From IMG/VR virus record IMGVR_UViG_3300022902_000004, positions 62,268-126,267 of that record: 64,000 nucleotides of DNA, one strand, 5' to 3'. The position numbers and the translations under genes are program-made. This DNA is from a virus. Shown here in pieces: positions 19,821 to 60,203 of the stretch. The notes beneath the pieces were generated by a model, which saw nothing but the letters and a program-made list of their open reading frames with translations, was not told where the DNA came from and did not search any database. Positions within the stretch are counted from its first letter, which is position 1. Each line of letters opens with the position of its first letter.

Positions 19821-20728
19821 TTAGATTCCCAGTGTTGTATTGTGGATGAGTATCGTCCACAAAGATCATTATATTCAGTCTCGCCAATTATTTCAATTTT
19901 TACTTCAGGGTACTGTGCTTCGAACTCAGCAAACTTTTCCTTCGCTCGGGGTGTCCACCAGCCCTTCACCTCATAGTACAAATCGCCTACCTTGAAGTCC
20001 GGCGTGTATGTTCGGCCGCTTTCCAGCACGAAACTATCTGGTTCGTATTCGAACACTTTTCCTTCGTGAAGCAGGTAGCGTGCAAAATTGGCTTCCCAGC
20101 AACTACGAACATAAAAGCCCAAATCATCCCGAGTACCGCCTCTACCGAAAAACGAATGCTTGTTCCTTCCTTCACGAACTCGCTTTGCTGCCGCGATTCG
20201 CATGTTTCGTTTTGTTTTCTCGGAGTGCTTGAAGTTCTTCAGCCTTTCGCTGGTGAGTTTTCGAGCCTCAGGTGTTTTCATCCAATGCTCAACGCCGTGG
20301 TTATCAATGTACCCCTGCTTCACTTTTTCACGGAACTCGTCAGTTTTCCATCTTGCGGCTAGTTCCCGGGACATTCTTGCTTTCGTTTCATCTGGTATTT
20401 GATAGCCGCCGGCTTCACGAATCGTTTTCATCGAAGCAACCATCTTCGCGTTCTGTTCGTCAGTCCGGGTATAGCTTCCATTTGCCATTCTGGTGGCCAC
20501 CATTCCGCTCTGGACGCACGGAAAACATTTGGACACCTGTTTCTTTTTGCTGGTGTCTTGGAACGTTCCAGAGCAAACCAGGCACACCTTCTCAGTCGGT
20601 GGATGTTTCGTGTGCCTGGTTTTGTTTCTGAGCTTGTACCCGCAGGTCTTTCCGCAGGTTTTCACTGTTCCGTTTTTCGTTTCAAATTTGCACTCGCAAA
20701 CTTGGCATGTTTTGGTGTGTATCTTCAT
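19817..20728 (-). CDS. free-standing homing-endonuclease-like protein (C4 Zn finger plus C-terminal PD-(D/E)xK-like)
   Basis: CQVCECKF...CGKTCGYK, and the C-terminal TYTPDFKVGDLYYEVKGWW. Its stop overlaps the dnaE start (ATGA). Confidence 0.55.
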   Translation of the reverse strand: MKIHTKTCQVCECKFETKNGTVKTCGKTCGYKLRNKTRHTKHPPTEKVCLVCSGTFQDTSKKKQVSKCFPCVQSGMVATRMANGSYTRTDEQNAKMVASMKTIREAGGYQIPDETKARMSRELAARWKTDEFREKVKQGYIDNHGVEHWMKTPEARKLTSERLKNFKHSEKTKRNMRIAAAKRVREGRNKHSFFGRGGTRDDLGFYVRSCWEANFARYLLHEGKVFEYEPDSFVLESGRTYTPDFKVGDLYYEVKGWWTPRAKEKFAEFEAQYPEVKIEIIGETEYNDLCGRYSSTIQHWESK

Positions 20729-37267: not shown

Positions 37268-37404
37268 TTATCAGCTATTTCATAGACCTCGCCGGCGTAT
37301 AAGTCAACAACAACCCTGCCGGCTTTATTACGACCACCGATCACAAAATCCGGGCTATCAAGTCCTGTTGGATCCACAATCATGATTTTGTCACCGATTT
37401 TCAT
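37180..37404 (-). CDS. hypothetical small protein (74 aa)
   Basis: ORF; overlaps the 5' end of the preceding gene, so one of the two starts is probably internal. Confidence 0.25.
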   Translation of the reverse strand: MKIGDKIMIVDPTGLDSPDFVIGGRNKAGRVVVDLYAGEVYEIADKWDAYLRLKHGRKRPWIHKSVCVPSRKKS

Positions 37405-38669
37405 TTATCAAGCCTCCAGCAAACGAAGGTGCCGAAGCGAAGCGAACCATCCTCCGTCTCTTCCTGGTATCGACATTCTGCAGTCATGCCCAGGAAATCG
37501 TCTTTGTTATTCCAAATCTCGACACGTTGTTCGTCATCGAAACCAGAACCAATTTTCACCTCGACACCATTGTGGTCGACCCACACAGCGCCAAGTTTTC
37601 CAACATTCTTGCCGGTTCCTTCCTTGAAACCGATGACCTCAAGATCGATGTCGATGAAGGACTTCACCTTCAGCATGTCATGTGAGCGACCGAACTTGTA
37701 GACGGCGTCTGGGCTTTTGACCATGGCACCTTCGAAACCCAGCGATTCCCAATGGGCTTGATGTGATGCGATTGCATCCATTGACTTTTCAACTTCCTGT
37801 TGCTCGATGAGGAAGATGTTGTCAGAACCAACGTTGTCGAACAGTGATTCAAGCCACTCACGACGCTCCCGCATTGTTGCGACACCTTTTCGATTGTCCC
37901 ACTCTTCCAGGGTGACATAGTCGAAAATGGTCAGGTACGATTTCGAAACGTTGGCACCGGTTTGGCGACGGTATTGACGCATCAAAGCAGTGAAATCTTC
38001 ATCCATAACCTCGCCGTCGTACACACCCTCCGGCCACGTCGCCAATTGGGCGCCGATGGTATCATCGAAATTGCTGATTCGTTTACCTGAGCGGGCATAC
38101 GATTCGCATGCGCCGTCCCGTACGATTGAAAGCAACCGGATTCCATCAAGCTTTGGCTCAAGGAAAACGTTCTTCGGCATCTTCTTGGCTGTTTTCTCGT
38201 TCCACTTGTCCGCAAGCTGGACTTTGAATGTCGTGATGAGCCCGGGAAAGACCTTGTTCGTGGTCGTTCGTGCGATACCAACGGCCGATTTCTTCTGAAT
38301 CAGACGGCGCATCCAGTACTCATCTTCTGGGGTGACCTGAACCAGCACGTTGCAGATGGCGTCGCGGGCTGCGTTGCCAGTAAGCTCTCGTGCCTGGCAC
38401 ATTTCCAGCACGTTGAAAAGCAGCTCCCAAATTTCGGCATCGGTCCGTGGGTGTTTCACGTCAATGCGAAGGTTAATCTTCGGAACCTTCTTGACCCAGA
38501 ATTGAATCGACTGGTCAAGGCTCAGCTTCAAAGCACGCTTCAGTGTCTCGTTGTCGCCGTTGGCTCGTAGAATGTCCAGTTTGGCATTTGTGCCTTTGGT
38601 TTCATTCACTGCATTCAAAATATCTGTAACACGCATTAGTTGACCTCTTTGTATCGTCCCCGGGAACAT
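37401..38669 (-). CDS. ATP-dependent DNA ligase
   Basis: Adenylation motif I is FLEPKLDGIRLL (KxDG). The nucleotidyltransferase is followed by an OB-domain, and the protein is 422 aa long. Confidence 0.85.
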   Translation of the reverse strand: MFPGTIQRGQLMRVTDILNAVNETKGTNAKLDILRANGDNETLKRALKLSLDQSIQFWVKKVPKINLRIDVKHPRTDAEIWELLFNVLEMCQARELTGNAARDAICNVLVQVTPEDEYWMRRLIQKKSAVGIARTTTNKVFPGLITTFKVQLADKWNEKTAKKMPKNVFLEPKLDGIRLLSIVRDGACESYARSGKRISNFDDTIGAQLATWPEGVYDGEVMDEDFTALMRQYRRQTGANVSKSYLTIFDYVTLEEWDNRKGVATMRERREWLESLFDNVGSDNIFLIEQQEVEKSMDAIASHQAHWESLGFEGAMVKSPDAVYKFGRSHDMLKVKSFIDIDLEVIGFKEGTGKNVGKLGAVWVDHNGVEVKIGSGFDDEQRVEIWNNKDDFLGMTAECRYQEETEDGSLRFGTFVCWRLDK

Positions 38670-40049: not shown

Positions 40050-40673
40050 TTACTTATCCTCGTCGCAGTTGTGAAACTCGAAGTTGACATCGACGCTAAC
40101 TGTCATTTTTGGGATGCAGATATGGTTTGCAAGGTTGTGCTTCTTAGCCTCTTTCGGCGTGAAGAACCAGTCTGCACCTCGTTTCTTCCTGCTAAGCTTC
40201 TTGAAGTAATCGTCCTTTTGACCGCAGTTTCGTGACATCATGGTGTACAGCATCTTATCAAGGCGTTTGGCTTCTTTCGTGCTAACTTTCATTTCTTCAA
40301 TCTTGCCGACGGCCCATGACGAAACATCATGAATCAAATATGTCGCATCAGGTGAGCAAAATCGCATGCCTTCAGCCCCACACGATGCCAAAGCGGTGCC
40401 GCATGACATCGCCTTTCCAAGCACGATTGTCGCGACGGGCACCTCAGAGGCTTTTATCGTCGAGACCATTGATGTCAGCGAATATACTGCCCCACCGTAG
40501 CTATCAATCACGACAGGGATGACAGGCTGACCGGTCAACTGTGCTTTCCCCATATCCTCGGAGAACTTCTTGGCTGCTTCCTCATTGAACTTGTTGACAT
40601 ACACAATCACGGGCTCATTCTTGAGAACCGTCTCTGATTTCAGCAAATTACTCACTACTTTTTTTACGAACAT
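40050..40673 (-). CDS. ClpP-family serine protease (S14/S49-like; candidate prohead protease)
   Basis: IPVVIDSYGGAVYSLTSMVSTIKASEVPVATIVLGKAMSCGTALASCGAEGMRFCSPDATYLIHD aligns with ClpP [48 protein letters not shown]...RFCLPNSRVMIHQ. The catalytic Ser (MSCG) and His (LIHD) are present. Confidence 0.75.
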   Translation of the reverse strand: MFVKKVVSNLLKSETVLKNEPVIVYVNKFNEEAAKKFSEDMGKAQLTGQPVIPVVIDSYGGAVYSLTSMVSTIKASEVPVATIVLGKAMSCGTALASCGAEGMRFCSPDATYLIHDVSSWAVGKIEEMKVSTKEAKRLDKMLYTMMSRNCGQKDDYFKKLSRKKRGADWFFTPKEAKKHNLANHICIPKMTVSVDVNFEFHNCDEDK

Positions 40674-45545: not shown

Positions 45546-45793
45546 TCTTGGGTATACACGATATGTTTGCCGAATTGCACATCTTCTTTGCTGTTTTTAT
45601 TGATAGAAACCTGTGCGATTTTTGTTACAAGCTCCCCGGTGGGTGTTTGCTCAACGAAGACATATTCCTCCATCATACCAGGCCGGCACTCGGGACTTTG
45701 TTGCCAGGATCCCGGTAGAATGCCTGGCGTTGGTGGCGTCATAGTTTGCAAAACCTTGACCGCTTGGTCAAATCGTTCTTGTGTCAATAACAT
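45542..45793 (-). CDS. hypothetical small protein (83 aa)
   Basis: 4-nt overlap. Confidence 0.3.
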   Translation of the reverse strand: MLLTQERFDQAVKVLQTMTPPTPGILPGSWQQSPECRPGMMEEYVFVEQTPTGELVTKIAQVSINKNSKEDVQFGKHIVYTQE

Positions 45794-46772
45794 TCTTTAT
45801 TTCCTGTCGTTTCATTTCGATGTCGTCTGATTCCCAAACCACTATAACAGTGTATCCCATTCGTCGTAAGTTTTCACTTCGTTTGGCATCGGCAGCCCAT
45901 TTTTCTTCAGCAAGAAACGATTGGCCCCGAAGGCGCACATTGAATTTGGCTTCATAGAGTTTCGGGTTGGCATGGACATAATCACCATTGATTTCGACAA
46001 TGACCTTTTTCTTTTCGTTGAGCTCATCAGCAAAGTAGGCGCCCACTCGTTGCTCTGATACAAAGCCCAGTTTTGTCAGGCCGAGCTCTTTCCGGAGGCG
46101 TTGGTGGAGCTTTGACAACCTGTTTTTGGAACCGGCGAACATCTTACGTAATGTCGCTGCTTTTTGCGCCGGGGTTCTGTTTTTTCTCCAGTGCGCTTGT
46201 TTCTTCCTGTATGATTCCTTTTTCCAATTTCGTTTTGAACCCTTCCCTATCGCTTTCTTCCAGGTCTCGTCCATGACGACTTCACCTTTTGCCCACCTAG
46301 CTTTCATCTTCTTGGATGAACCTTTGGCGATATGGGGAAGCTGCCCGACGTTTTTGACACCGTACTTCTTCTTCACGACCTTCTTGATTTTTTCTTGTGT
46401 TTTCTTTAGTGAAAAGCCGGCGTTCAGTCCGGAGCACCTTTGTGAGCAATACGATTTTGGTTTGCCACGGACGAAAGTCACAGCCTTCTTGCAGGACTTC
46501 TCCTTACATTTGGGCTTGCCATACTTTTTGATATAGAGTTTTTCTCTTGTCTTGAATTTGTCGTGAGTAAGAGCATATCTCTTGAACACACCCCTGGCAA
46601 ATGCAGGAGGCAGATCGCAAAGCCCACAAATGCACTTTGGTGGTTTGCCATCAAGCTTGTGCTTAATGACGTAATCGACCATTTCCATTTTGTGGGCTTT
46701 GCGGAGATGAGTAGTTAGCTGTCCGCCTAAATTATCCTTGAATCCTTTTTTGCATTCTTTGCACTTGATCAT
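45768..46772 (-). CDS. free-standing homing-endonuclease-like protein (Zn fingers, K-rich, C-terminal Vsr/DUF559-like VIVEINGDYVH)
   Basis: CKECKK...H..H, CICGLC, multiple K-rich repeats, the C-terminal FADEL...VIVEINGDYVHANP. It sits next to the RNR gene. Confidence 0.5.
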   Translation of the reverse strand: MIKCKECKKGFKDNLGGQLTTHLRKAHKMEMVDYVIKHKLDGKPPKCICGLCDLPPAFARGVFKRYALTHDKFKTREKLYIKKYGKPKCKEKSCKKAVTFVRGKPKSYCSQRCSGLNAGFSLKKTQEKIKKVVKKKYGVKNVGQLPHIAKGSSKKMKARWAKGEVVMDETWKKAIGKGSKRNWKKESYRKKQAHWRKNRTPAQKAATLRKMFAGSKNRLSKLHQRLRKELGLTKLGFVSEQRVGAYFADELNEKKKVIVEINGDYVHANPKLYEAKFNVRLRGQSFLAEEKWAADAKRSENLRRMGYTVIVVWESDDIEMKRQEIKNVIDTRTI

Positions 46773-49287: not shown

Positions 49288-50712
49288 TTAGTTTTCCTCT
49301 CCGCTTTTTACTTTTTGCCAGGCGGCTGCAAGCGCTGCCTTGGCATTGCCATTGGTTTGTTGTACCGTCTCAGTAAGTGTCAACGAGTTCTCATCCAATA
49401 TCTCAAACATTGACATTGATGTGTCAATTGATATTGGAAAAAGGATTCCGTCACGACCTGCTCTGTTCTTTGCGATATAAAGACGACCAACACCTGTTGA
49501 TTTTTCCATTGCTTTTCTTGAGATGCTGATGACCACATCAGCAACCATTGCTTTTCCATAAGCTTCAGACATATTTTCGAGACCTACAATGTCCGATTGG
49601 GCACTATCTCGATTTGCCTGTGACGCTGTCCAAATAGGAACGTCTAATTCCATAGATAGATTTCTGAGTTCTTCGTAAATAAACTTTAGCTCGTGGCGCA
49701 GTTCACTTGACTTACGATCTGAACGCATGATGTCGGCGTAATCGACAAGAATGATGTCAGGCTTGAAGCCTTTCAGTGACAATTTCTCGATATGGTTGCG
49801 CAACGTTTGTACCGTGGCGCTTCCTGTCGGGTACTCTTTGATTATTAGGCGCCCGAGATTTTTGCTTTCGTAGACCTCTTTGACCAAATCGATATTGTCT
49901 TGGATGTCGTTTGAAGGAAGTCCGCAAAGATTGCTGTCATACCGAATACCGACTTTCGTCTCAGACAATTCGAATGTGTAGTGCAGGACGTTTTTCTTGG
50001 CCCGCATGGCGTTGGCACCGAGGGCAACCAGCCAGTGACTCTTACCAACGCCGGTATTAGCAACGACGATTCCAATCTCACCACGACCCAGCCCACCAGC
50101 AAAAATGTCCTTTGCATCCAGGATTGGGAATCCTGTCGGACATGCATGTCGATTTAGTTTGATAAATCTGGCTTCAAGGTCTTCGAAGAAATCGTGACCA
50201 ACACTATGAGGAGTACCAAGTGAAATGGCATCCTTCATCAGAGCCATGACTTCTTCGAACCCATCACCCTCAATCAAGGTGACAGACTTTTCCAATGCTG
50301 CTTTGAACGCTTGTCGCTTACAGAAATCCAACGACTTGTCTTTGACGTAGGCGATGTCTCCTGGGTTCCGGTTGGCCTTGACCCGCAACAAGAACTCAAT
50401 GATTTGGTCACGAAGGATGTCGTCTTCACCGTCAGATAATTCATCACGAATGACGTTGACAAGCAAACCCAACGTCGGGAAACACTTGTATTTCTGGTGA
50501 TACAGGAAGTACTTTTCAGTTAGAAATTGGAGATACTCGACATCAAAAAAGTTTGGGCGCATGACCTCAACCATTTGAGATGCCCACGGAGTATCAAAGA
50601 TTAGTCCTTGAAAGATTTTCTCTTGGAATGATTTTCCATGCTGGGCAAAATATGGTACGTTGTTTGCATTGTCTATGATTCCCTGCATGAAGTTGTTTTT
50701 CGATTCCGCCAC
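49288..50712 (-). CDS. DnaB-family replicative DNA helicase
   Basis: Walker A GIVVANTGVGKSHWLVALGANAM with a RecA-like C-domain; 474 aa continuous. Confidence 0.8.
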   Translation of the reverse strand: MAESKNNFMQGIIDNANNVPYFAQHGKSFQEKIFQGLIFDTPWASQMVEVMRPNFFDVEYLQFLTEKYFLYHQKYKCFPTLGLLVNVIRDELSDGEDDILRDQIIEFLLRVKANRNPGDIAYVKDKSLDFCKRQAFKAALEKSVTLIEGDGFEEVMALMKDAISLGTPHSVGHDFFEDLEARFIKLNRHACPTGFPILDAKDIFAGGLGRGEIGIVVANTGVGKSHWLVALGANAMRAKKNVLHYTFELSETKVGIRYDSNLCGLPSNDIQDNIDLVKEVYESKNLGRLIIKEYPTGSATVQTLRNHIEKLSLKGFKPDIILVDYADIMRSDRKSSELRHELKFIYEELRNLSMELDVPIWTASQANRDSAQSDIVGLENMSEAYGKAMVADVVISISRKAMEKSTGVGRLYIAKNRAGRDGILFPISIDTSMSMFEILDENSLTLTETVQQTNGNAKAALAAAWQKVKSGEEN

Positions 50713-51179: not shown

Positions 51180-52154
51180 CTAACGTCGAATCGCTGTAAT
51201 TGCCTGAAAGTGCCTATCAATATCAAACTTTTGCATGCCCGACTGTATTAGCTGGCGCATCAGTTCCATTTTGTTTGGTTTTCCCTCGTTTTCAATCTGG
51301 TGGTTTACCTTTTGAATCTGGGTCCCGGAGAGCTGTGATGTGTCCAGGTAAATCAGCTTCCAGTTTTTCAATGCCAAATCCCTAGATTCTGCGATTCGAT
51401 GGATCGTTTTGGCTGCTTTCGTTTCCGCCAACTCGACCGCGCTGTCGACAATATCATTGTGACTTACGAAGTCAGGCCCACCCAATTGAGGGAACCACTT
51501 CGCCATATTCTTGAAGCCCACACCTTTGACACCCGGGACGTTGTCACTCGGATCCCCGATGAACACCCGAGCTGAACAAAAATTCTGCGGCGAAACACCA
51601 AATTTGTCTATAACTGATTGTTCTGTAATCAGTTTTTTCTGTCCGGGTGACCATTGTTGCACTCGTTCATCGATGAGCTGATAGAAATCCTTATCTGAAG
51701 ACACCAGAATGACCCTGGACGTCTTGAAATGGTACCGGCCTAGGTAACCTATAACGTCGTCTGCTTCGCAGCCACTGACGTACACCTGTGTCACCGGCAA
51801 GCATTTCAAAGCTCGGGTGATAAATAGGACTTGCATGGCAAAATTCTCAGGCGTCGTTGGAATATCATCGCCGTAGTACCGGTTCATTTTCGGTGCCTTG
51901 CGACCATTCTTATATGATGCCGAGATTGCCCGTTTTCTTTGGCTTCCACCTGACTCGAAAACAACGATTACCTTTTTGGGATTGTATGTTTCGCACAGCC
52001 GCCCAAGCCCACCAAGAAAGCCCATAACTCCGCCGACTGGTTCCCCCGTTGTTGCCATGGACGGATTCGCTTTGAAGTGTCGAATGAACATGTTCATGAA
52101 GTCGACAATCAAGATTGGGCGATCTTGGTGGGCTGGTTTGTTCATCTTATACAA
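51180..52154 (-). CDS. 5'-3' exonuclease / flap endonuclease (second FEN-family paralog)
   Basis: The N-terminal PIN domain (PILIVDFMNMFIRHF) plus H3TH motif SDNVPGVKGVGFKNMAKW. Confidence 0.7.
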   Translation of the reverse strand: MYKMNKPAHQDRPILIVDFMNMFIRHFKANPSMATTGEPVGGVMGFLGGLGRLCETYNPKKVIVVFESGGSQRKRAISASYKNGRKAPKMNRYYGDDIPTTPENFAMQVLFITRALKCLPVTQVYVSGCEADDVIGYLGRYHFKTSRVILVSSDKDFYQLIDERVQQWSPGQKKLITEQSVIDKFGVSPQNFCSARVFIGDPSDNVPGVKGVGFKNMAKWFPQLGGPDFVSHNDIVDSAVELAETKAAKTIHRIAESRDLALKNWKLIYLDTSQLSGTQIQKVNHQIENEGKPNKMELMRQLIQSGMQKFDIDRHFQAITAIRR

Positions 52155-53382
52155 TTTCCTCTAGCGCATCAGGATCGAGAGCTCCAAGCTCATCAGCAAG
52201 TGCTGTGACTTCTTCATATGAGTTCTCGTCGATTTCTATGTCGTGTGGGTTGATGATTGTTTTCACGTAAATCTTATCGAATAAATCGGCAAGGTATGGA
52301 CCATATTCGTCACTGTCCAGAAGTTTGTTGAATTTTGATTTGTAGAACTTCTTTTCAATAAGGACTTCACCGGTTTCTGTGTCGGTGACAATGAAATCTT
52401 TGCTTGCGCCGGCGCCGCTGACTGATATGGTTTTCCCATCAATGTCCTCTGGACCGTGTTTCCGCATCACATCAAAAACCTGCTCATGTTCAAAAATACC
52501 CTTACCAAAGTGGATTTCGAATTTGACTTTCCGGAAAGGCATGGCAACCTTGTTCTTGATTGTCTTTGCCCACACATGGATGCCGATGACATCACCGGAC
52601 TTGTCCTTGATTTGCTGACCGGCTCCCAGCCTAATCCTTACTGACGAGTGGAATGGAATCGCTGCTCCGCCGGGTGTTGTTGTCGGATCACCAAACATCA
52701 CACCGATTTTCGTTCTCGTCTGGTTTAGGCAAACGAGCAGAACATTTTGGCTGCCAATGATGCCGGTGATTTTCCGCATACCTTTTGAAATGGCTCGTGC
52801 CTGAAGCCCAATTGAGTTTTTGTCGTAGTCTCCGTCCAGCTCTTCTCGTGGTGAACAGGCAGCGACTGAGTCCCAAATTATTGTAATCGGCACATCTTTT
52901 TTCATGGCCTTGGCTTTCAAGATCGTTGACTCGGCAGTCTTCAAAACATCTTCTGTACAATGTTGGTCGACATACACGAATCGCTTTGAAATATCGATGC
53001 CCAACATTGCCAGGTTCTCAACTGATGTTGCGTTTTCGGTGTCAATATACACAGCCAACCCGCCCATCTCTTGGGTCGATCTTGCAATCTGCGTTGCGAT
53101 GTGTGATTTACCAATTGAAGGCGGACCGAAAATCTCAATGATACGACCTTCTGGAAGCCCACCGTTGCGACGGTTTGAAACCATATAATTGATCTGGCGG
53201 GAGCCAGTAGGAATCCACCGTTTCACATGTGTAGGTGAAGTCTCTGTACCCAAATTATATGCAACCTTTGAACCGAACTCCTTGTTCAGCGATGCGATTA
53301 GGTCTTTTGTAAAGTCCTCAGTTACTGCATCTTTCTTAGTTGCCCTCTTTTTCCTCGGCGTTGCTTTCTTTTTTACTACCAT
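52147..53382 (-). CDS. RecA/UvsX-family recombinase
   Basis: GGLPEGRIIEIFGPPSIGKSHIATQIA...AVYIDTENA matches the RecA Walker A region GRIVEIYGPESSGKTT...AFIDAEHA. Confidence 0.8.
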   Translation of the reverse strand: MVVKKKATPRKKRATKKDAVTEDFTKDLIASLNKEFGSKVAYNLGTETSPTHVKRWIPTGSRQINYMVSNRRNGGLPEGRIIEIFGPPSIGKSHIATQIARSTQEMGGLAVYIDTENATSVENLAMLGIDISKRFVYVDQHCTEDVLKTAESTILKAKAMKKDVPITIIWDSVAACSPREELDGDYDKNSIGLQARAISKGMRKITGIIGSQNVLLVCLNQTRTKIGVMFGDPTTTPGGAAIPFHSSVRIRLGAGQQIKDKSGDVIGIHVWAKTIKNKVAMPFRKVKFEIHFGKGIFEHEQVFDVMRKHGPEDIDGKTISVSGAGASKDFIVTDTETGEVLIEKKFYKSKFNKLLDSDEYGPYLADLFDKIYVKTIINPHDIEIDENSYEEVTALADELGALDPDALEEIV

Positions 53383-53482: not shown

Positions 53483-54268
53483 TTACATGTTGTCTAAATC
53501 AGCGAAAGCGTCGTCCAGCTCTTGGAATGTCGAAGGCTTAGCATCATCTGCTTTGTCCTCTGACTCTTCAGCTTTCTTTGGGGCATGACGTGGAGCCGAT
53601 GGCGCCTCGTCGTCTGGGTTCTCCAACCACGCGTTGATGATGTTTTCCAACTCATCGTAGCTCTTCAAGGTGAACAGGTCATCAAGATTCGGGATGCTGT
53701 CGAGCCATTCCTTCGCTTGCTTCTTGTCATCGCTCAACGGCGAACGAACAGGTCGTGCTCGAGGCGTCGTCTTTGCATACTGCTGACCAGCAGGCTGGGT
53801 CACAGTAACCTTGACATCAAATCCGTTCTTCGGGTCGGTAATATCGCCGAAGTCAGCATCCAACATTGTGGAAATCAAGTCCTGGTAAACCTGCTTTCCG
53901 AAGCCCCACAAACGAACGCCCTTGTCCTCTTCACCGCGGACGATGACTGGAACGTATGAACGCATTTTCGGGTATAGCTTCTTGCAAAGCTCGTAACCTT
54001 CCTTTGTGTCCTGGGCACGTAGCTTGTTGATTAGCTCCTGAATTGGGTCAGGCTTACCATACTGGTTCGGTGACAACAGGCCGCGATTGCTTCCGATGTT
54101 GTAGTAGAACCAAAGTTCTTTAAACGGTTGTCCGTCGTTGTCTGGGAAAGAGATGAGTCGTACAACGGACTCCTTACCCTTCTCAGGTCGCCAGAACGCA
54201 TTCTTTCGAGAGCCCTCACCATTCAATTGGGCCAACTTCTTCCGTAGTGCTTCTAAATTAACTGCCAT
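53483..54268 (-). CDS. gp32-like single-stranded DNA-binding protein
   Basis: LRKKLAQLNGEG resembles T4 gp32 LAAQMAKLNGNKG, and VVRLISFP resembles VIRFLPS. The acidic C-terminal tail ENPDDEAP... matches the gp32 ENPDD tail. GGAGG RBS 7 nt upstream. Confidence 0.7.
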   Translation of the reverse strand: MAVNLEALRKKLAQLNGEGSRKNAFWRPEKGKESVVRLISFPDNDGQPFKELWFYYNIGSNRGLLSPNQYGKPDPIQELINKLRAQDTKEGYELCKKLYPKMRSYVPVIVRGEEDKGVRLWGFGKQVYQDLISTMLDADFGDITDPKNGFDVKVTVTQPAGQQYAKTTPRARPVRSPLSDDKKQAKEWLDSIPNLDDLFTLKSYDELENIINAWLENPDDEAPSAPRHAPKKAEESEDKADDAKPSTFQELDDAFADLDNM

Positions 54269-54365: not shown

Positions 54366-54632
54366 TTATTTAGTGTTTGGTGCTTTTGCATTGCCACCGG
54401 ATGCCGCGACTGCGGACTTCTTGTTTGGGTACGTTGAGTCAGTACCTAACGGGGTCGTGACACCGGCTACACCAGCACACACGCTTTGCTCTTGGGCATC
54501 TTCTTCGTTCTCTGTCGATGCGTCTGGTTCTACAAGCAATTCAGTCGACGGATCGTCATCATCACCCTTATCATAGATTTCGTGCATCCACTTTACAACT
54601 TCCCAAAGGCTCTTTTTCATGTTCTTTTTCAT
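54366..54632 (-). CDS. hypothetical small acidic protein (88 aa)
   Basis: ORF in array. Confidence 0.3.
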   Translation of the reverse strand: MKKNMKKSLWEVVKWMHEIYDKGDDDDPSTELLVEPDASTENEEDAQEQSVCAGVAGVTTPLGTDSTYPNKKSAVAASGGNAKAPNTK

Positions 54633-54674: not shown

Positions 54675-55247
54675 TCACTTTTGTTTCATTTCGTTGAATG
54701 TTAATGTGCGGCACATTTGTAGCGCGCTGGCCAATGGTAGGTTCTCATTTGCATAAAACCGGTTCTCATCGTATTGAAATCCGGCTGATGTCAAGATTGC
54801 AACCCATTCATCCATTGTCACCTTGAATCCGTATTTCGCGATGTAGAATAGCGTCCTATGAGATGACGACATTTTTGGGCAGGCTTCGTTATATTTGTAG
54901 TTGCGATTCAACTTCTCACGATGCCAGTCCGATGTTTCTGTCACAAACAAGTCTGCATGCGGCCCGCCTACTCGACCCAACTCATGAAGCAAGGCAACCC
55001 GTACCAACGATCTGTGGTTGACGGCCTCGTGAAATATCTTCGTCTGTTTAGCTACATTTAGTGAAAACGATACCAACCCTCCTGGAATTCCGCCCAAATC
55101 TGGGGTTATGTCTCTCGGTGCAAGAAATAGTCTCTCTCCTAGGTCGGCTTCCATGCAATCAATTGCATCACTCGATTCGGGAAAGAACTTCTTGAGAAAG
55201 CTCAAATATTTTGCGTATGTTTGTTTTAGTTCTTCAAAGTTTTCCAT
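54675..55247 (-). CDS. HD-superfamily-like phosphohydrolase (divergent, HD to HE)
   Basis: RVALLHELGRVGGPHAD resembles the ALLHDLGK HD motif with E in place of D; 190 aa. Confidence 0.3.
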   Translation of the reverse strand: MENFEELKQTYAKYLSFLKKFFPESSDAIDCMEADLGERLFLAPRDITPDLGGIPGGLVSFSLNVAKQTKIFHEAVNHRSLVRVALLHELGRVGGPHADLFVTETSDWHREKLNRNYKYNEACPKMSSSHRTLFYIAKYGFKVTMDEWVAILTSAGFQYDENRFYANENLPLASALQMCRTLTFNEMKQK

Positions 55248-55282: not shown

Positions 55283-55813
55283 TTACTTTGCGTAAATTGT
55301 TGGTTTCGAAACCAGCTTGGCGTTGGCAAACCCGATGCCTTTATCGAGGTTCAAAATGCCACCGTTCTCTGCTGCGCGTAACGTAATAACAAGATACTTC
55401 GTTGCATCCCGTTGTTTCAAGTCTTCATCGAACGAGATGCTGAATCCTTCGACGTCTTGGCCTTTCGAGTTCTTCGTACGTGTTCTTTTGAAGTCGCCGT
55501 AAGCTTCTGCCATAATCTCGTTCGACCGAATTGCTTGCTGTAAAACGGAAACAGCTTTGATTGCATCCGTCTTACCTTCCGCTTTTTGAGTTACACCGAG
55601 ATCGCGTAATAGGCCTTTTGGGTCTGCTTCTGCTCGTCCTTTCGTAAACGCAATCTCCTTGGCGAAGGTACCGCCAGTGCCATACGCACCATGCCAGTCG
55701 ACCTTGCTCTTATTGGCTTTTGCTTCATGTAGAAAATCTTCGACCGCCTCTAAAAGCATCGCATCAAGTTTGTCGTTCATTGTATCACCTTTCCGCATAT
55801 AAATATCAAACAA
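55283..55813 (-). CDS. hypothetical protein (176 aa)
   Basis: ORF in array. Confidence 0.35.
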   Translation of the reverse strand: MFDIYMRKGDTMNDKLDAMLLEAVEDFLHEAKANKSKVDWHGAYGTGGTFAKEIAFTKGRAEADPKGLLRDLGVTQKAEGKTDAIKAVSVLQQAIRSNEIMAEAYGDFKRTRTKNSKGQDVEGFSISFDEDLKQRDATKYLVITLRAAENGGILNLDKGIGFANAKLVSKPTIYAK

Positions 55814-56921
55814 TAGCCAGCGTCGATGGAAACTTTATGTTTTCAAATTGTAATGCTGCCAACTCGGTTTTCAATGTTTCGATGTCACATTTTGGAATCT
55901 CAGCAATGAGGGCATCATGAATCACCAGCTGAGGCTTCATCGATGGCACTGCATCACATAACTTTGCAAATAACAGCACCGCCAACTCGGCCGCTGTCGA
56001 CTGAATGTAGTGGTTTACCCTTACTCTTTCAGTCTTTGTCGCATCATGCAGAGGTCGGCCGAAAAAATTCCTGACCATACCTTGTCTGGCTTGCTCTTCT
56101 AGCATCCCCTCTAAACTTGGTACATCAAAAAATGCCTTGACGTTTGCTACGACTGATGCCGCCTTACTTTTTGACTTCACCGTTTCTATGAGGCTACGCT
56201 CTGATGCCCCATACAACGCCGAAATTGTTGCAAGTTTTGCGATAGGACGAGTGGAAATATCACAGACATCCATAAGATACTCGTACACATCCATGTTCCC
56301 GATGTCATGTTGCAGCAACATTAGTGCAACTCGTGGCTCCATTGACGTAAAATCAATAATTGCGATATCCGAGTCACTTTTTGAAGCTCGGAGGGCTTTC
56401 CTTGACTTTGCTGGTGCAACAAGGAAATTCGGCCCCTTGGTAATCGTTAGCCTGCCGGTCGCCGAACCTGCTGTGGAGTATTTCACCCTTGGAAGAATTC
56501 CCGTCAAAATTGATGCCTTGAATGCATTTCCTTTCATAATTTGTGATTCTTGACGGATTGCGCTCCATGGCTTCGGCACTGTATAGATCCTATGCAAGCT
56601 GTCGAGGAAATCCCTAACCTGCAACCACGTCGACAAATACGTTTGATTTTCATCGAAACTCATCGCCTGCTTCATAGCCCGAAGTGACGCAGCCACAATT
56701 TCGTCGCGCTTCTTTTTTGCAATCATGACTGGCCACAATGATGAGTCGTTTGTAAGCGTGCTCGTCATGGCAAGCGTTTCATCGCCAACGAATTGGTACT
56801 TTTCATTGTCAACGATTGATAGGAACTCCTCAAGCATATCGAGAGTCAGAATCCCGTCAAGACCGTCTGCAACGTTGCCGACCCGAAGAAGATCATTTTT
56901 GACTTGAAGACATAAATCCAT
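55806..56921 (-). CDS. minimal family-A (Pol I-type) DNA polymerase, polymerase domain only
   Basis: KYSTAGSATGRLTITKGPNF (compare TATGRLSSTDPNLQNIP). Motif A is IAIIDFTSMEPRVALMLL (DYSQIELR), motif B RPIAKLATISALYGAS (RRxAKxxNFGxxYG), NHYIQSTAAEL (QGTAAD), motif C LVIHDALIAEIP (VHDE). 371 aa with no exonuclease domains. Confidence 0.7.
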   Translation of the reverse strand: MDLCLQVKNDLLRVGNVADGLDGILTLDMLEEFLSIVDNEKYQFVGDETLAMTSTLTNDSSLWPVMIAKKKRDEIVAASLRAMKQAMSFDENQTYLSTWLQVRDFLDSLHRIYTVPKPWSAIRQESQIMKGNAFKASILTGILPRVKYSTAGSATGRLTITKGPNFLVAPAKSRKALRASKSDSDIAIIDFTSMEPRVALMLLQHDIGNMDVYEYLMDVCDISTRPIAKLATISALYGASERSLIETVKSKSKAASVVANVKAFFDVPSLEGMLEEQARQGMVRNFFGRPLHDATKTERVRVNHYIQSTAAELAVLLFAKLCDAVPSMKPQLVIHDALIAEIPKCDIETLKTELAALQFENIKFPSTLAIV

Positions 56922-56952: not shown

Positions 56953-59907
56953 TCAGGACTTTTTTCGTTTTGATGCATTTGCAATTTCGATTGTGACGAT
57001 CGTGTCTTCAATCTCGCTGTCAACATGAACAAATGATCCGAATGCATCTGTTTGAATCAAATCGACGTTCGTTTTGAACTCACCGCGGTTGATTGTATGG
57101 TTTACACTTGTCACGGCATAAAAATTGTCAGCCGATGTATTCGTACCCATGTCAACAAAAAACTTCTGTGCCATCCTGAAATATGGACAGCCAAACGTTT
57201 CAAGTCGCAACGTCGTCGGGTGAACCATCAGTGGTAACGACATATCTTCCTTGGCGCCGTTTCCGTCTTTTCCAGTTATTGCTTTTGTCAGTGCTATCGA
57301 TGTTAGCGCGTCGTTCTGTTGTGATGACAAATTTGCAGACAATATACCGGATGCTGCAGAGCCGTATATCAGACTCGGGGCAAACTCAAAAAACAGTTCC
57401 TTGATGTTGTTTTTTGCCTTTTTGAAATTGAAAACCTCAGTTGCGTTGAGTCGCTCCCTCAGCTCAGTTTCTTTCTTTGGCGGGAACGGGAGCTTGTCTG
57501 CCTTCGATATCCTTTTTATTTCCTCGATGATGTCATCAATTTTGCTTGTTCCACCAAGATGGTCAGCAAGCGAAGCAGTAAGCTTTCTGTCACGAAGTGT
57601 TTTGTATGTTGCCGCTGATGTTTCGCCATGGCGAGCACCTCTTTCATTCGCTGGACCGTTGAGCGAATCATTAACAAAATGGCCTAGCCTTGCGGCCTTA
57701 TTGAATGTGTCTATAATCGGCATAACCTGGCCGGCTGCGGCGTCGAAAAATGTCACCCGTGTGATGTTCTTTCCCGAGTTGTCGGAGCTTTTTCTGGTGA
57801 CAATATTCATCGTAACATGCGGCGGCCGGAATGTTGGCCTGATGCGTTTCATTTCATAAATGTTTCGCAGGTTTTCATGCAGTTTGTTATTGAACGATTT
57901 CCTATTGCCTTTTTTGCTTAGTATTCTATCAATATTTGCCCGGTAAACAGCTTTAAGGGTTTTATCATCTCGCTTATCAGGCTGATAGATATCGGACAAC
58001 CCATATGCACTACTTCCTTGGAACGATAAAAAGTACTTTTCTACGAACTGCAAGAGTTCATACGCCGAGATTTTCGTCTTCTTTTTTGCCTCTGCAACAA
58101 GGTACTTTCGCAAATCGTCGATATCGATTGGGAACTGTGAGATGTTGTGATCATACATCGCACCAGCAGAGCTATTAAATGGCGTGAAAATAAGCTGAAG
58201 ATCATTGTCCTGCGACGAGAACACCGGTGTCAAGAAATGTGTCATTAGCTTCCCGAACGAGATGTATGCTTGTTTTCCACGTTTTGATTTTTTGTTTTGG
58301 TTAAGCTTGCCGCCCTTGGTAAGATGTCCATCATTCAATTTTGATGATGTTACCCCACGCTTTGTTGGTCGAAGAAACGGATCAGGCGTTGACCGAAGGT
58401 AGTCGATGTGATCAGTGATGTTCTCTTTCACTGTTTTTTCTGCTCGATCCAGCAATGATTTCTTTCCACGAGACCGCACGCCGATGAGCTTTATAAGTTC
58501 GGTGTTGACGTCTTTTAGGCTTGTTCCTGATTTTCTTAGCTTCGCTGACGCTTTTTTTAGGGCTTTTTTATCCTTCGGGGTAAGGTTTAACACGTTTTCA
58601 GGACTTATGCCCATGACAATCTGGGGAATGCTCACGTTTGGCATCCTTTTTTGAATGTCTCTCATCTTTTTCTGGATTGCATGCATTACTGACATCACGC
58701 TAGCAACGCTTTCGCTGTCAGCGACACTTAGAATATCAGTTGCCGATGCGGCGCCAGTACCTACCATCGCCAAATCAACACTTACCGCAACTGTTCCATC
58801 ACTCTCAAATTCAAATGAGCTATTCGTTACAATATACGATTCTGATATCCGCATTGCATTTATCAAGTCTCCCATTTTTGTTTGAGATGCGTCAGCGCCC
58901 CTTTGCACAAACTGGCCGTCTGGGTGTGACCAGCCATACGTAATGTAGAACTGCACATTTCCTTTCCGCTGTGGTGAGACTAGTGGGGCAATATCCTGTA
59001 GCCGACCTCGATCGAATAGTTTCATATTCAATTTCGCGGATTTATGAGAAATCGTTCCAAACGCCGTTGGCACAATACTGATTTCTATTCCGTCGAGGCT
59101 CAAAAAGGGCCTAAACTTGTCAATCGGTCTCGATTCGCCTGGCTCATATGTTCTGTCGGCAGCCACCATAGTTTGCGGCGACGTAAAAACTTCCATTGAT
59201 GAAACAGCCTGCAGGTTTGATTGCTTGCTTGAGGCGAACGTGTCGGCTGTCCCAACCTTACCCAAAAATTTGCCACGGAGAGCCTTCTCTGATATTCCTG
59301 CACCTAAAAACTTACCAAGGGAAAAGTGTGCATCCTGGACGAAATTTCCAGTATCTTTATCGACGCCTGCATCCCCCACAGCCGATGATACAGTGATGTC
59401 AATATATGGCACTGCCCGAGACATTTCTAATGATGTCAAGTTACTCATAAACAGCGTGATGATTTCAGTGTCTGCAATGTCATGCCCTCGTGCCGCCGGG
59501 AAAACCTGGTATACGGTTGCTGCATTATCTGGCACCTTCGATGTTTGAATGACGTCCGTGTATATTCCGTAATGTTTTTCTTTTGGTTTTCCCCACCCCT
59601 GATCTTTGCCCGGCACGTTCAATACATCATCAGGAATACTACCTTGCTCATCTGCAGGAGTTACGCAAACATCAATTTTTGCATTTTTGCCATAACTGTT
59701 TAGCAGTTTGTAGATTTCAGCATCTGGCATAAACTCGACACCGTCGCCAAAAATCTCCTGAAAGAACATGTCCTTGCTGGTTTGACGTGCTGAACTTGCT
59801 GATTTCGCTGTCGAGTTTTCAATTGCAGACAGGAATGCGTCCTGTTCACGCAATCCAAAGTACCTCGCTAAGTCATTGTATATTTTTCTTGCTGTTCGAA
59901 CTGCCAT
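56953..59907 (-). CDS. large virion-associated (structural) protein, about 984 aa
   Basis: Long ORF. The track gives 56953..60015; start trimmed to the Met that abuts the stop of the upstream small gene. No enzymatic motif recognised; follows the LysM/gpX-like gene. Confidence 0.45.
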   Translation of the reverse strand: MAVRTARKIYNDLARYFGLREQDAFLSAIENSTAKSASSARQTSKDMFFQEIFGDGVEFMPDAEIYKLLNSYGKNAKIDVCVTPADEQGSIPDDVLNVPGKDQGWGKPKEKHYGIYTDVIQTSKVPDNAATVYQVFPAARGHDIADTEIITLFMSNLTSLEMSRAVPYIDITVSSAVGDAGVDKDTGNFVQDAHFSLGKFLGAGISEKALRGKFLGKVGTADTFASSKQSNLQAVSSMEVFTSPQTMVAADRTYEPGESRPIDKFRPFLSLDGIEISIVPTAFGTISHKSAKLNMKLFDRGRLQDIAPLVSPQRKGNVQFYITYGWSHPDGQFVQRGADASQTKMGDLINAMRISESYIVTNSSFEFESDGTVAVSVDLAMVGTGAASATDILSVADSESVASVMSVMHAIQKKMRDIQKRMPNVSIPQIVMGISPENVLNLTPKDKKALKKASAKLRKSGTSLKDVNTELIKLIGVRSRGKKSLLDRAEKTVKENITDHIDYLRSTPDPFLRPTKRGVTSSKLNDGHLTKGGKLNQNKKSKRGKQAYISFGKLMTHFLTPVFSSQDNDLQLIFTPFNSSAGAMYDHNISQFPIDIDDLRKYLVAEAKKKTKISAYELLQFVEKYFLSFQGSSAYGLSDIYQPDKRDDKTLKAVYRANIDRILSKKGNRKSFNNKLHENLRNIYEMKRIRPTFRPPHVTMNIVTRKSSDNSGKNITRVTFFDAAAGQVMPIIDTFNKAARLGHFVNDSLNGPANERGARHGETSAATYKTLRDRKLTASLADHLGGTSKIDDIIEEIKRISKADKLPFPPKKETELRERLNATEVFNFKKAKNNIKELFFEFAPSLIYGSAASGILSANLSSQQNDALTSIALTKAITGKDGNGAKEDMSLPLMVHPTTLRLETFGCPYFRMAQKFFVDMGTNTSADNFYAVTSVNHTINRGEFKTNVDLIQTDAFGSFVHVDSEIEDTIVTIEIANASKRKKS

Positions 59908-60203
59908 TAGATTACCTCTAAAACCGCGTTGAGATCGCTTGGGATTACGATCCGAGTGCCGGCTGGTGCCTGGAGCCACCAACCTATACCAGATGCTGCA
60001 GCAATAATCCACCATAACCTGCCGTCTCCATAATTATGATTTGCAATTACGTCGAGACGTTGAGCGCCCCTTAGCACTGTTGTTGTCGTTTGTATCCTGC
60101 CAGTTGAGATCGCGTTTCTGAGTTTTATTATTGCATCGTTTGTTCCTAAAAGTTTGCCTGACATTACCAGCTTGTCATTTTCATATCTGTTTATTGATGC
60201 CAT
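59907..60203 (-). CDS. small tail/baseplate assembly protein, LysM/gpX-like (tentative)
   Basis: 98 aa; the C-terminal LQAPAGTRIVIPSDLNAVL resembles the LysM-like tail protein X of P2-type myophages. Sits between two >980 aa ORFs. Confidence 0.3.
   Translation of the reverse strand: MASINRYENDKLVMSGKLLGTNDAIIKLRNAISTGRIQTTTTVLRGAQRLDVIANHNYGDGRLWWIIAAASGIGWWLQAPAGTRIVIPSDLNAVLEVI

What the first reader, a model, noticed from the sequence alone, without database searches (positions are those of the whole stretch)
55806..56921. 371-aa stand-alone family-A polymerase domain coexisting with a DnaE-type replicase
All Pol I palm and fingers motifs are present: the TGRLT/PN segment, the motif A DFTSMEPR, the motif B RPIAKLATISALYG, the QSTAAE string, and the motif C HDA. 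No 3'-5' or 5'-3' exonuclease domain is attached.

The protein sits at the boundary with the structural genes. Two separate FEN-family nucleases are encoded elsewhere in the window (1..557 and 51180..52154). The nuclease and polymerase modules of a Pol I-like enzyme therefore appear to be encoded as separate genes.

The second carboxylate of motif C is Ala (HDA rather than HDE). Polymerase activity may therefore be altered, and the enzyme could be specialised, for example for gap filling.
Basis: partly seen in the sequence, partly recalled or inferred. Interest (0 to 1): 0.55.

Follow-up and report, generated by a model that had tools for sequence, protein, structure and literature searches.

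The report
Minimal second DNA polymerase in phage
This gene encodes a stripped-down family-A DNA polymerase with no nuclease domains that a large group of marine phages carries alongside their main replicase; the type was first noted in 2024 ("divPolA1") and its job is still untested.

Summary

HDA is a family trait (201/216), and it comes with loss of the C-terminal NWxxAH tail (0/216). In T7 Pol the motif-C Glu positions that tail's terminal His. H734 is Tyr and F762 is Leu/Ile/Met throughout, while both metal-binding Asp, the steric-gate Glu, K758 and Q849 are invariant.

The gene is a core gene of a large uncultured phage clade (284 IMG/VR loci). It always sits between tail-type genes and SSB-RecA-FEN-DnaB-RNR, and DnaE lies elsewhere in the genome.

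This matches "divPolA1" (Yutin et al. 2024; Flavobacterium phage immuto), so the kind is known; this is a less derived, much larger branch.

Most likely it is an active, distributive, non-proofreading auxiliary polymerase doing short-patch synthesis with the Pol I-type FENs and the ligase. A primase role is weakened but not excluded.

The parts
55806..56921 (-). Mini family-A DNA polymerase (371 aa; divPolA1-like)
56724..56921 (-). Variable N-terminal element (residues 1-66: beta-beta-beta plus helices), possibly a vestige of the 3'-5' exonuclease domain
56601..56717 (-). Short thumb: two 18-residue antiparallel helices (69-86, 90-107) joined by a 3-residue turn, with no tip subdomain
   Evidence: DSSP of the model. 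Thumb truncation is also reported for divPolA1 (PMC11348598). The comparison with Klenow was not measured on coordinates.
56427..56459 (-). TGRLT..GPN hairpin (R157 = Klenow R668)
   Evidence: R157 in 216/216
56331..56354 (-). Motif A DFTSMEPR (D190 = D705 metal ligand; E195 = E710 steric gate)
   Evidence: D190 and E195 in 216/216
56208..56249 (-). Motif B / O-helix RPIAKLATISALYG (R754, K758, Y766 equivalents; I233 at the F762 position)
   Evidence: K229 in 216/216; position 233 is L 110, I 102, M 4, never F or Y
55986..56003 (-). QSTAAE (Q307 = Q849)
   Evidence: Q307 and S308 in 216/216
55911..55919 (-). Motif C HDA (D336 = D882 metal ligand; A337 replaces E883)
   Evidence: H and D in 216/216; A in 201/216
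55806..55829 (-). C-terminus ends right after the last palm strand (FPSTLAIV-stop); the G.NW..AH tail of Pol I and T7 Pol is absent
   Evidence: E. coli ...VGSGENWDQAH, T7 ...GPNWAICH; 0 of 216 members have such a tail
55283..55780 (-). d1, conserved 165-aa alpha/beta protein of unknown function directly downstream
54675..55247 (-). d2, conserved 190-aa protein of unknown function; its slot is taken by a DEDDh RNase_T exonuclease in 23 of 84 related loci
   Evidence: no family hit
54366..54632 (-). d3, small acidic protein with a conserved C-terminal motif
53483..54268 (-). gp32-type ssDNA-binding protein
   Evidence: present in 74/80 loci
52147..53382 (-). RecA/UvsX-type recombinase
   Evidence: 72/80 loci
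51180..52154 (-). Pol I-type 5' nuclease (FEN), the candidate partner
   Evidence: 67/80 loci
49288..50712 (-). DnaB-family replicative helicase
   Evidence: 65/80 loci
37401..38669 (-). ATP-dependent DNA ligase
33024..33671 (-). Fpg/Nei-type DNA glycosylase
16257..19820 (-). DnaE (Pol III alpha with PHP domain), the 'regular' DNA polymerase
   Evidence: found on the same contigs as the mini-PolA in relatives
1..557 (-). Second Pol I-type FEN (5' part; 267 aa in full on a related contig)
56953..60015 (-). Conserved ~1000-aa upstream protein, probably a tail or virion protein; 31-nt gap to the polymerase gene with no terminator
   Evidence: positional analogy with the immuto tail genes; no family hit

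Best explanation
The gene encodes an active but minimal DNA-dependent DNA polymerase of family A. It has fingers and palm, a stubby thumb, no proofreading domain, no 5' nuclease domain and no C-terminal tail. It serves as a second, auxiliary polymerase next to the phage's main replicase, which here is DnaE.

Its build points to a distributive enzyme that makes short patches of DNA at primer ends, gaps, flaps and recombination intermediates. It would hand the product to the separately encoded Pol I-type flap endonucleases and the ATP-dependent ligase. That covers Okazaki-fragment maturation, extension of D-loops or primers during recombination-dependent replication, and repair after glycosylase action.

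Shown: homology, fold, invariant catalytic residues, purifying selection, fixed position in the replication module, and coexistence with DnaE. Inferred: catalytic activity, low processivity, and the specific substrates and partners.
For: Fold and family.

Catalytic residues across 216 family proteins: D705, E710, R668, K758, Q849, H881 and D882 equivalents are 100% conserved.

Selection: dN/dS 0.053, similar to FEN 0.051, RecA 0.031 and DnaE 0.028.

Tolerability of the deviations: Klenow E883 mutagenesis lowers kcat only 26-fold, and in T7 Pol the equivalent Glu positions the C-terminal His704 at the primer 3' phosphate (PMC3241644). Here both the Glu and the His tail are gone, which looks like a coherent remodelling rather than decay. 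A Klenow sub-fragment without the exo domain is folded and catalytically characterised (PMC6457538). Thumb-truncated Pol I stays active but less processive (cited in PMC10061031).

Context: the gene lies at the head of SSB-RecA-FEN-DnaB-RNR in all 80 IMG/VR loci wherever the flank allows. Both FENs are Pol I-type. Ligase and Fpg are in the window. DnaE is on the same contigs across 31-91% mini-PolA identity.

Published parallel: divPolA1 is judged likely active and replication-linked, and always accompanies a regular DNAP (PMC11348598).
Against: There is no biochemical evidence for any member. The kind persists in relatives whose main polymerase is a full-length PolA (immuto) or a PolB (PMC11348598). 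Those replicases normally fill their own gaps, so a simple Pol I substitute for DnaE cannot be the whole story. Loss of E883 and the C-terminal His could lower activity more than assumed. The d1, d2 and d3 neighbours are of unknown function and could redefine the activity. No interaction with FEN was tested.
Confidence: 0.55

Rival explanations
1. It is a PolA-based primase or primase-polymerase, like CcPol-MP, the PolA-SSB primases or TV-Pol. A truncated PolA, helped by a small ssDNA-binding partner, starts DNA chains de novo for the DnaB helicase.
For: The architecture resembles CcPol: exo-less with a short thumb (PMC7581432, PMC10061031). It also resembles the minimal TV-Pol domain, whose published alignment includes a Microcystis phage Ma-LMM01 protein (PMC2579912). 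Small conserved genes and an SSB follow the polymerase, and DnaB is in the same module. No DnaG or AEP primase was detected in the 64-kb window. Loss of the C-terminal tail that contacts the primer-terminus phosphate could make room for an initiating triphosphate (inference).
Against: The immediate downstream protein d1 is not an OB fold and matches no SSB. The cultured relative immuto, which has the same module, encodes a conventional DnaG primase elsewhere in its genome. The window covers only part of a genome of more than 184 kb, so absence of a primase here is weak evidence. The module is tightly linked to nucleases (FEN, RNase_T), unlike TV-Pols (PMC2579912). No D5/Cch-type helicase or recombinase is adjacent.
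Confidence: 0.12
2. It is the conserved core polymerase of the replisome, for example an initiator or primer-extension polymerase that hands off to the processive enzyme. Analogies are Pol I at ColE1 origins and DnaE before PolC in Bacillus. On this view the 'regular' DNAP (A, B or C) is the interchangeable module.
For: The mini-PolA and its neighbourhood are invariant across the clade, whereas the regular DNAP differs in family between lineages and sits in a variable neighbourhood (PMC11348598; DnaE here, PolA in immuto). The gene lies next to SSB, RecA and DnaB.
Against: No proofreading and a stubby thumb make it a poor bulk replicase for 150-300 kb genomes. It evolves faster than DnaE (29-55% vs 51-67% identity over the same contig set). 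No clamp-binding feature was identified.
Confidence: 0.15
3. It is a catalytically dead or nearly dead pseudo-polymerase, kept as a DNA-binding or scaffolding subunit.
For: Motif C lacks the Glu, and the C-terminal His tail reported as essential for catalysis in T7 Pol (PMC3241644) is missing. The more derived branch (immuto, Mel-JY01) has also lost TGR, the steric-gate Glu and the motif-C His.
Against: Both metal-binding Asp, the steric gate, and the O-helix Arg, Lys and Tyr are invariant or nearly so in 216 sequences spanning down to about 20% identity. That is hard to explain without catalysis. E883 mutagenesis in Klenow costs only 26-fold in kcat (PMC3241644).
Confidence: 0.06
4. It is a specialised polymerase for non-canonical substrates, such as modified dNTPs, lesion bypass or RNA templates.
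For: It has fixed active-site departures (Tyr for H734, Leu/Ile for F762, Ser for G850, Ala for E883). The window is rich in nucleotide-metabolism genes (ThyX, TK, dCMP deaminase, NT5C, deoxyribosyltransferase). Immuto carries a 7-deazaguanine pathway.
Against: No base-modification pathway was identified in this window. The deviations are shared across lineages with different nucleotide-metabolism gene sets. The F-to-L change in Taq gives a slower, more accurate enzyme rather than a more permissive one (cited in PMC6302109, PMC9069017).
Confidence: 0.07

Closest known systems
divPolA1 (Yutin et al. 2024, Virol J 21:200, PMC11348598): Flavobacterium phage vB_FspM_immuto gp001, uncultured phages LR796xxx, GOV bins MK892584/766/784
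   Same: [quoted passage not shown] It occupies the same position, after the tail genes and before SSB-RecA-5' nuclease-DnaB-RNR (vs 16, 74). The regular DNAP sits among chaperonin and nucleotide-metabolism genes. The thumb is truncated and there is no active 3'-5' exonuclease. Motif C is x-D-A and there is no C-terminal tail.
   Different: Sequence similarity to immuto gp001 is faint (17 bits with the family HMM) and moderate to the Mel-JY01 protein (48 bits). The window's family keeps the canonical motifs TGRL, D..S.EPR, R...K...YG, QSTA and HDA and passes Pfam DNA_pol_A, whereas Mel-JY01 does not pass Pfam and neither it nor immuto keeps those motifs. It is shorter (350-410 aa vs 408-441). 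The published marine representatives (QDP51333, CAB4155247) could not be fetched, so direct membership is untested.
Klenow / KlenTaq / Bst large fragment (bacterial Pol I polymerase domain)
   Different: No 5' nuclease and no 3'-5' exo domain, a short thumb, Ala for E883, Tyr for H734, Leu/Ile for F762, and no NWxxAH tail. It falls far below the NCBIfam Pol I cut-offs (26 vs 720 bits).
CcPol-MP / PolA-SSB primases (PMC7581432, PMC10061031)
   Same: A truncated PolA lacking a working exonuclease, with a shortened thumb, encoded at the head of a replication operon that contains a helicase. The steric-gate Glu is kept.
   Different: No small OB-fold partner was found next to it. The helicase is DnaB rather than Cch/MCM-like. 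There are no recombinases. CcPol keeps F762, whereas here the position is Leu/Ile. Hosts are marine phages rather than Bacillota mobile elements.
TV-Pol (Iyer, Abhiman, Aravind 2008, PMC2579912)
   Same: A minimal domain of coiled-coil thumb, Arg hairpin, two-Asp palm and fingers with Asp plus RxxxK. It is found in viruses that keep their usual replicase. A Microcystis phage Ma-LMM01 protein is in their alignment.
   Different: TV-Pols are linked to D5-like helicases or TV-PolN and are never linked to nucleases. This family is linked to DnaB, FEN and, in a subclade, RNase_T.
Split T7-like PolA (S-SBP1 exo + pol genes; PMC10201439)
   Same: The polymerase domain is encoded without its exonuclease.
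   Different: In the T7-like case a recent frameshift split one gene and the exo gene is adjacent. Here no cognate exo gene exists in the window and the domain loss is ancient and family-wide.

Membership tests
Family A DNA polymerase (PF00476) | Profile score above Pfam's gathering threshold | tested here: met
   46.4 bits vs 34.3; members P0055, P0067 and P0073 score 41-54 bits
Family A DNA polymerase (PF00476) | Right-hand fold with fingers, palm and thumb superposable on solved PolAs | tested here: met
Family A DNA polymerase (PF00476) | Motif A and motif C metal-binding aspartates, motif B RxxxK...YG | tested here: met
   D190, D336, K229 and G238 in 216/216; R225 in 215/216; Y237 in 204/216, with Phe in 11
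Family A DNA polymerase (PF00476) | Motif C Glu (HDE) and C-terminal His/Lys tail | tested here: not met
   A337 in 201/216; no NWxxAH tail in 0/216
Bacterial DNA polymerase I (NCBIfam PRK05755 / TIGR00593) | Three-domain architecture (5' nuclease, 3'-5' exo, pol) and score above cut-off | tested here: not met
   26 and 21 bits vs cut-offs of 720 and 600; only the pol region matches
divPolA1 (Yutin et al. 2024) | Encoded in addition to a regular DNAP in a large myophage genome | tested here: met
   DnaE at 16257..19820; both genes on six related contigs
divPolA1 (Yutin et al. 2024) | Conserved replication genes downstream (SSB, RecA, 5' nuclease, DnaB, RNR) and tail genes upstream | tested here: met
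   The window and 80 loci have the same order as immuto
divPolA1 (Yutin et al. 2024) | Regular DNAP neighbourhood holds a chaperonin and nucleotide-metabolism genes | tested here: met
   TK, dCMP deaminase, ThyX and NT5C lie around DnaE; Cpn60 lies just beyond the window's left end on a related contig
divPolA1 (Yutin et al. 2024) | Truncated thumb and lost or inactive 3'-5' exonuclease | tested here: inconclusive
   No DEDD motifs or domain. The thumb is two 18-residue helices with a 3-residue turn by DSSP, but no coordinate-level comparison was possible.
divPolA1 (Yutin et al. 2024) | Sequence homology to the published members | tested here: inconclusive
   Family HMM vs Mel-JY01-type 48 bits, vs immuto gp001 17 bits. 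The marine representatives MK892584/QDP51333 and LR796625/CAB4155247 are not in the local collections.
PolA-SSB primase (CcPol-MP type) | Small OB-fold ssDNA-binding partner encoded next to the polymerase | tested here: not met
PolA-SSB primase (CcPol-MP type) | Primer-independent DNA synthesis | not testable with these tools
   Needs biochemistry
PolA-SSB primase (CcPol-MP type) | Operon with a Cch/COG3378-type helicase and site-specific recombinase | tested here: not met
   The helicase is DnaB family, five genes away; no recombinase in the module
TV-Pol (Iyer et al. 2008) | Linked to a D5-like helicase or TV-PolN; never linked to nuclease genes | tested here: not met
   Conserved linkage to FEN (67/80 loci) and RNase_T (23/84 loci)
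Split T7-like exo/pol PolA | Adjacent gene encoding the cognate 3'-5' exonuclease domain | tested here: not met
   The upstream 1020-aa and downstream d1 proteins have no exo similarity; phmmer of the Klenow, T7 and RNase_T exonucleases against all window ORFs found nothing

The most novel reading that the evidence does not exclude
The mini-PolA, not DnaE, is the invariant polymerase of this clade's replisome. It would be a dedicated initiator or hand-off polymerase that extends RNA primers, R-loops or RecA-made D-loops for a short distance before an interchangeable processive enzyme (family A, B or C, depending on lineage) takes over. Its joint loss of the motif-C Glu and the C-terminal His clamp on the primer terminus would be the adaptation that allows easy release or hand-off, or even de novo starts.
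Probability: 0.15. Interest if true: 0.75.

Novelty: new member of a known kind. Interest (0 to 1): 0.42.

Why it matters
If the enzyme is active, it is among the smallest natural family-A polymerases: 350-410 aa, with no nuclease domains, a stub thumb and no C-terminal tail. It also has a fixed, unusual active-site signature (HDA, Tyr734, Leu/Ile762). That makes it a natural experiment on which parts of Pol I are dispensable, and a compact scaffold for engineering.

Biologically, a polymerase that is never lost or swapped, while the 'main' replicase changes family between related phages, raises the question of how labour is divided between two polymerases in these abundant, mostly uncultured aquatic phages. 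The cultured relative immuto (host Flavobacterium) makes that question experimentally approachable.

Tried and rejected
1. Frameshift or truncated-gene artefact: rejected. The identical gene is on independent assemblies, family lengths are 280-461 aa, and dN/dS is 0.05.

2. Direct hits in GenBank phages with the window protein (tblastn) and with 12 kb of DNA (megablast): none. Only divergent family members reached Mel-JY01 and, through it, immuto.

3. Sequence-level test of the N-terminal 110 residues against the Klenow and T7 exo domains (hhalign): no signal.

4. Search for a DEDD exonuclease in the window (phmmer with the Klenow exo, T7 exo and RNase_T against 432 ORFs): none.

5. Search for a primase in the window (Pfam, PHROGs, precomputed Pfam, and immuto DnaG by tblastn and phmmer): none. 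This is uninformative, because the genome extends far beyond the window.

7. Function of d2: no hit in Pfam even at E = 10, nor in PHROGs or NCBIfam. An HD-like pattern seen by eye (GGLVSFSLNVA ... LLHELGRV) is unverified.

9. Look-ups of two window proteins by exact sequence failed, probably because of different start calls.

10. Fetching the published divPolA1 genomes MK892584 and LR796625 failed, as they are not in the collections. The paper's supplement held no sequences.

Full report
**1. Observation**

The minus-strand ORF 55806..56921 encodes 371 aa starting at ATG 56921. It matches Pfam DNA_pol_A at 46.4 bits against a cut-off of 34.3, over residues 147-355, and PHROG 17 'DNA polymerase'. 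By phmmer it matches KlenTaq, with IHDA aligned to VHDE.

The codons CAT GAT GCC at 55919..55911 read His-Asp-Ala. No nuclease domain is attached.

The window also holds:
- DnaE at 16257..19820;
- a DnaB-type helicase, a Pol I-type FEN, RecA, a gp32-type SSB and a class I RNR large subunit;
- a second, partial FEN at 1..557, an ATP-dependent ligase and a Dam methylase;
- an Fpg/Nei glycosylase.

**2. Not an artefact**

The identical 371-aa protein is called on contigs from ENA, JGI and Logan assemblies of different samples, always with the same neighbours. A word-indexed search found 73 relatives of 207-461 aa, nearly all 350-405 aa. An exhaustive profile search found 646 clusters at 50% identity with E <= 1e-30, and the best 150 are all 283-430 aa. 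Canonical Pol I would score only about E 1e-13 in that library, judging from its 65 bits.

dN/dS between the window and its closest IMG/VR relative is 0.053. This is like FEN (0.051), RecA (0.031) and DnaE (0.028).

**3. Structure**

By DSSP the thumb is two 18-residue helices (69-86 and 90-107) joined by three residues, so it has no tip subdomain. Before it lies a beta-beta-beta-helix element (residues 1-66). That element is missing in the shortest family members and longer in the ~400-aa members. It shows no sequence similarity to exonuclease domains. I could not inspect coordinates, so 'vestigial exo' and 'truncated thumb' are inferences, although they are consistent with what was published for divPolA1.

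**4. Active-site signature**

I aligned 216 full-length family proteins to the family HMM.

| Klenow residue | Window residue | Conservation in 216 sequences |
|---|---|---|
| R668, D705, E710, D732, K758, Q849, H881, D882 | R157, D190, E195, D211, K229, Q307, H335, D336 | 216/216 |
| E883 | A337 | Ala in 201; Gly 4, Glu 4, Ser 3, Cys 2, Asn 1 |
| H734 | Y213 | Tyr in 216 |
| F762 | I233 | Leu 110, Ile 102, Met 4; never Phe or Tyr |

With real E. coli PolA and T7 gp5 sequences, the protein ends at ...KFPSTLAIV, directly after the last palm strand. Pol I continues ...VGSGENWDQAH and T7 continues ...GPNWAICH. None of the 216 members has such a tail.

The literature links the two losses. In T7 Pol, E655 (the E883 equivalent) positions the C-terminal His704 against the phosphate of the primer's 3' nucleotide. 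Klenow E883 mutagenesis lowers kcat 26-fold (PMC3241644).

It is not a random lesion. The rest of the catalytic machinery is under absolute constraint, which argues for an active DNA polymerase; the steric-gate Glu in particular is invariant.

**5. Genomic context across the clade**

A pattern scan of IMG/VR found 284 loci, and the best 80 were analysed. In every locus whose flank is long enough, the order on one strand is: ~1050-aa protein, ~1000-aa protein, mini-PolA, small genes, gp32, RecA, FEN, DnaB, RNR. Counts out of 80 are gp32 74, RecA 72, FEN 67, DnaB 65 and RNR 52. Four more distant loci from other collections show the same order.

DnaE lies tens of kb away. It is found on the same contig as the mini-PolA in six cases spanning about 27-91% mini-PolA identity (the sixth is matched through contig length to P0066). 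Both lists were capped at 80, so this is a lower bound.

Both FENs resemble the 5' nuclease domain of bacterial Pol I far more than they resemble T5 FEN or T4 RNase H.

The slot two genes downstream holds one of two genes:
- d2, a 190-aa protein of unknown function, in 58 loci including the window's own lineage; or
- an intact DEDDh RNase_T-type exonuclease, in 23 loci.

No locus has both, and 3 have neither.

There is no terminator between the upstream gene and the polymerase gene; the gap is 31 nt.

**6. Prior art**

Divergent family members hit an unannotated 408-aa protein of Microcystis phage Mel-JY01. That protein in turn hits gp001 of Flavobacterium phage vB_FspM_immuto, annotated 'DNA polymerase family A'.

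Immuto, a cultured 160-kb myovirus from the Baltic, has the same layout: tail sheath, tube, baseplate hub, tape measure and large proteins, then gp001, two small genes, SSB, RecA, 5'-3' exonuclease, DnaB and RNR.

Yutin et al. 2024 (PMC11348598) named this protein divPolA1. [quoted passage not shown] It has conserved replication genes downstream. The regular DNAP sits in a variable neighbourhood that always includes GroEL/ES and nucleotide-metabolism genes. In the models the thumb is truncated, the exonuclease is inactive, and the palm residues are conserved, and they judged it likely active.

The window fits each of those points:
- DnaE lies among TK, dCMP deaminase, ThyX and NT5C.
- Cpn60 lies just beyond the left end on a related contig.
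- In immuto the regular DNAP is a 777-aa PolA next to GroES/GroEL.

The immuto and Mel-JY01 proteins are more derived than the window's family. They have TSRP for TGRL, D.D..H for D..S.E, and YDA for HDA. The one tested, Mel-JY01, fails Pfam DNA_pol_A.

The window's family scores E. coli Pol I at 62 bits, Mel-JY01 at 48 bits and immuto at 17 bits. It therefore looks like a less derived and much larger branch of the same kind. The published marine representatives could not be fetched, so strict membership is untested.

I found no mention of this class in the 2023 reclassification of PolAs (PMC10201439), the virioplankton PolA surveys (PMC6302109, PMC9069017), or the jumbo-phage overview (PMC7824862).

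**7. Function**

The best-supported reading is an active, distributive, non-proofreading auxiliary polymerase that makes short patches of DNA. It would act with the Pol I-type FENs and the ligase in Okazaki maturation, repair, and recombination- or primer-linked synthesis.

One caveat matters. The kind persists in lineages whose replicase is family A or B, so it is not merely a Pol I substitute that DnaE requires.

The main rival is a CcPol-MP-like primase (PMC7581432, PMC10061031) or TV-Pol (PMC2579912). Two results weaken it:
- d1 is not an OB fold.
- Immuto encodes a DnaG primase elsewhere in its genome.

It is not excluded, because no primase was found in this window and because d2 and d3 were not modelled.

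A second rival is an invariant initiator or hand-off polymerase paired with an interchangeable processive enzyme. The swap pattern makes it attractive, but it is untested.

**8. Verdict**

New here are:
- the scale of the family;
- its canonical-motif branch;
- the coupled loss of the motif-C Glu and the C-terminal His tail, with Tyr734 and Leu/Ile762 fixed;
- the d2/RNase_T alternation;
- the selection estimates.

Noticed in passing
window 54675..55247 (d2); L006:11787-12626 and 22 other loci: The gene slot after mini-PolA and d1 holds either the 190-aa d2 protein or an intact 279-aa DEDDh RNase_T-type 3'-5' exonuclease. Counts are 58 loci with d2 only, 23 with RNase_T only, none with both, and 3 with neither. 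This in-situ non-homologous replacement hints that d2 may be functionally analogous, for example a nuclease or end-processing enzyme.
   Followed up: partly
window 53483..54268 vs L013: gp32 has a far lower synonymous divergence from the closest relative (dS 0.17) than all neighbouring genes (dS 0.74-1.47). This suggests recent recombination or gene conversion of that one gene, or unusual codon constraint.
   Followed up: no
window 14532..15371, 19817..20728, 26916..27773, 32224..33021, 45768..46772: At least five homing-endonuclease-like genes (TnsA-N/NUMOD3, HNH/resolvase-like, GIY-YIG+NUMOD3, DUF559) are scattered among replication and nucleotide-metabolism genes. Two of them bracket the DnaE region.
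   Followed up: no
L102, L105, L172, L178, L179, L184-L187 (IMG/VR DnaE loci): DnaE matches in several relatives span 4.8-5.3 kb instead of about 3.55 kb. This suggests inteins or inserted endonuclease genes inside dnaE.
   Followed up: no
window 33024..33671: A phage-encoded Fpg/Nei-type DNA glycosylase is present. Together with FEN, ligase and the mini-PolA it makes up a possible base-excision repair set.
   Followed up: no
L010:8539-9765 and L010:13934-14974 (Microcystis phage Mel-JY01, PP395634.1): The divPolA1-type gene is annotated 'hypothetical protein', while the stand-alone 5' nuclease is annotated 'DNA polymerase I'. Both annotations are misleading.
   Followed up: partly
window 54366..54632 (d3); L007:11821-12513: This small acidic protein has a conserved C-terminal motif (..VAG....PLG..) across the clade. 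In L007 the motif is at the end of a longer 230-aa protein.
   Followed up: no
beyond window position 1 (related JGI contig); window 8295..8984, 40050..40673: The phage carries Cpn60, a sigma-70 factor, an Fe/Mn superoxide dismutase-like gene, pterin-4a-carbinolamine dehydratase and ClpP. These are host-like auxiliary genes typical of the immuto-like group.
   Followed up: no
window 56953..60015 and 60204..63350: Two clade-conserved proteins of about 1000 aa lie directly upstream and have no hit in Pfam or PHROGs; PDB was searched for the first only, also without a hit. By position they correspond to the tape-measure and large tail-associated proteins of immuto.
   Followed up: partly
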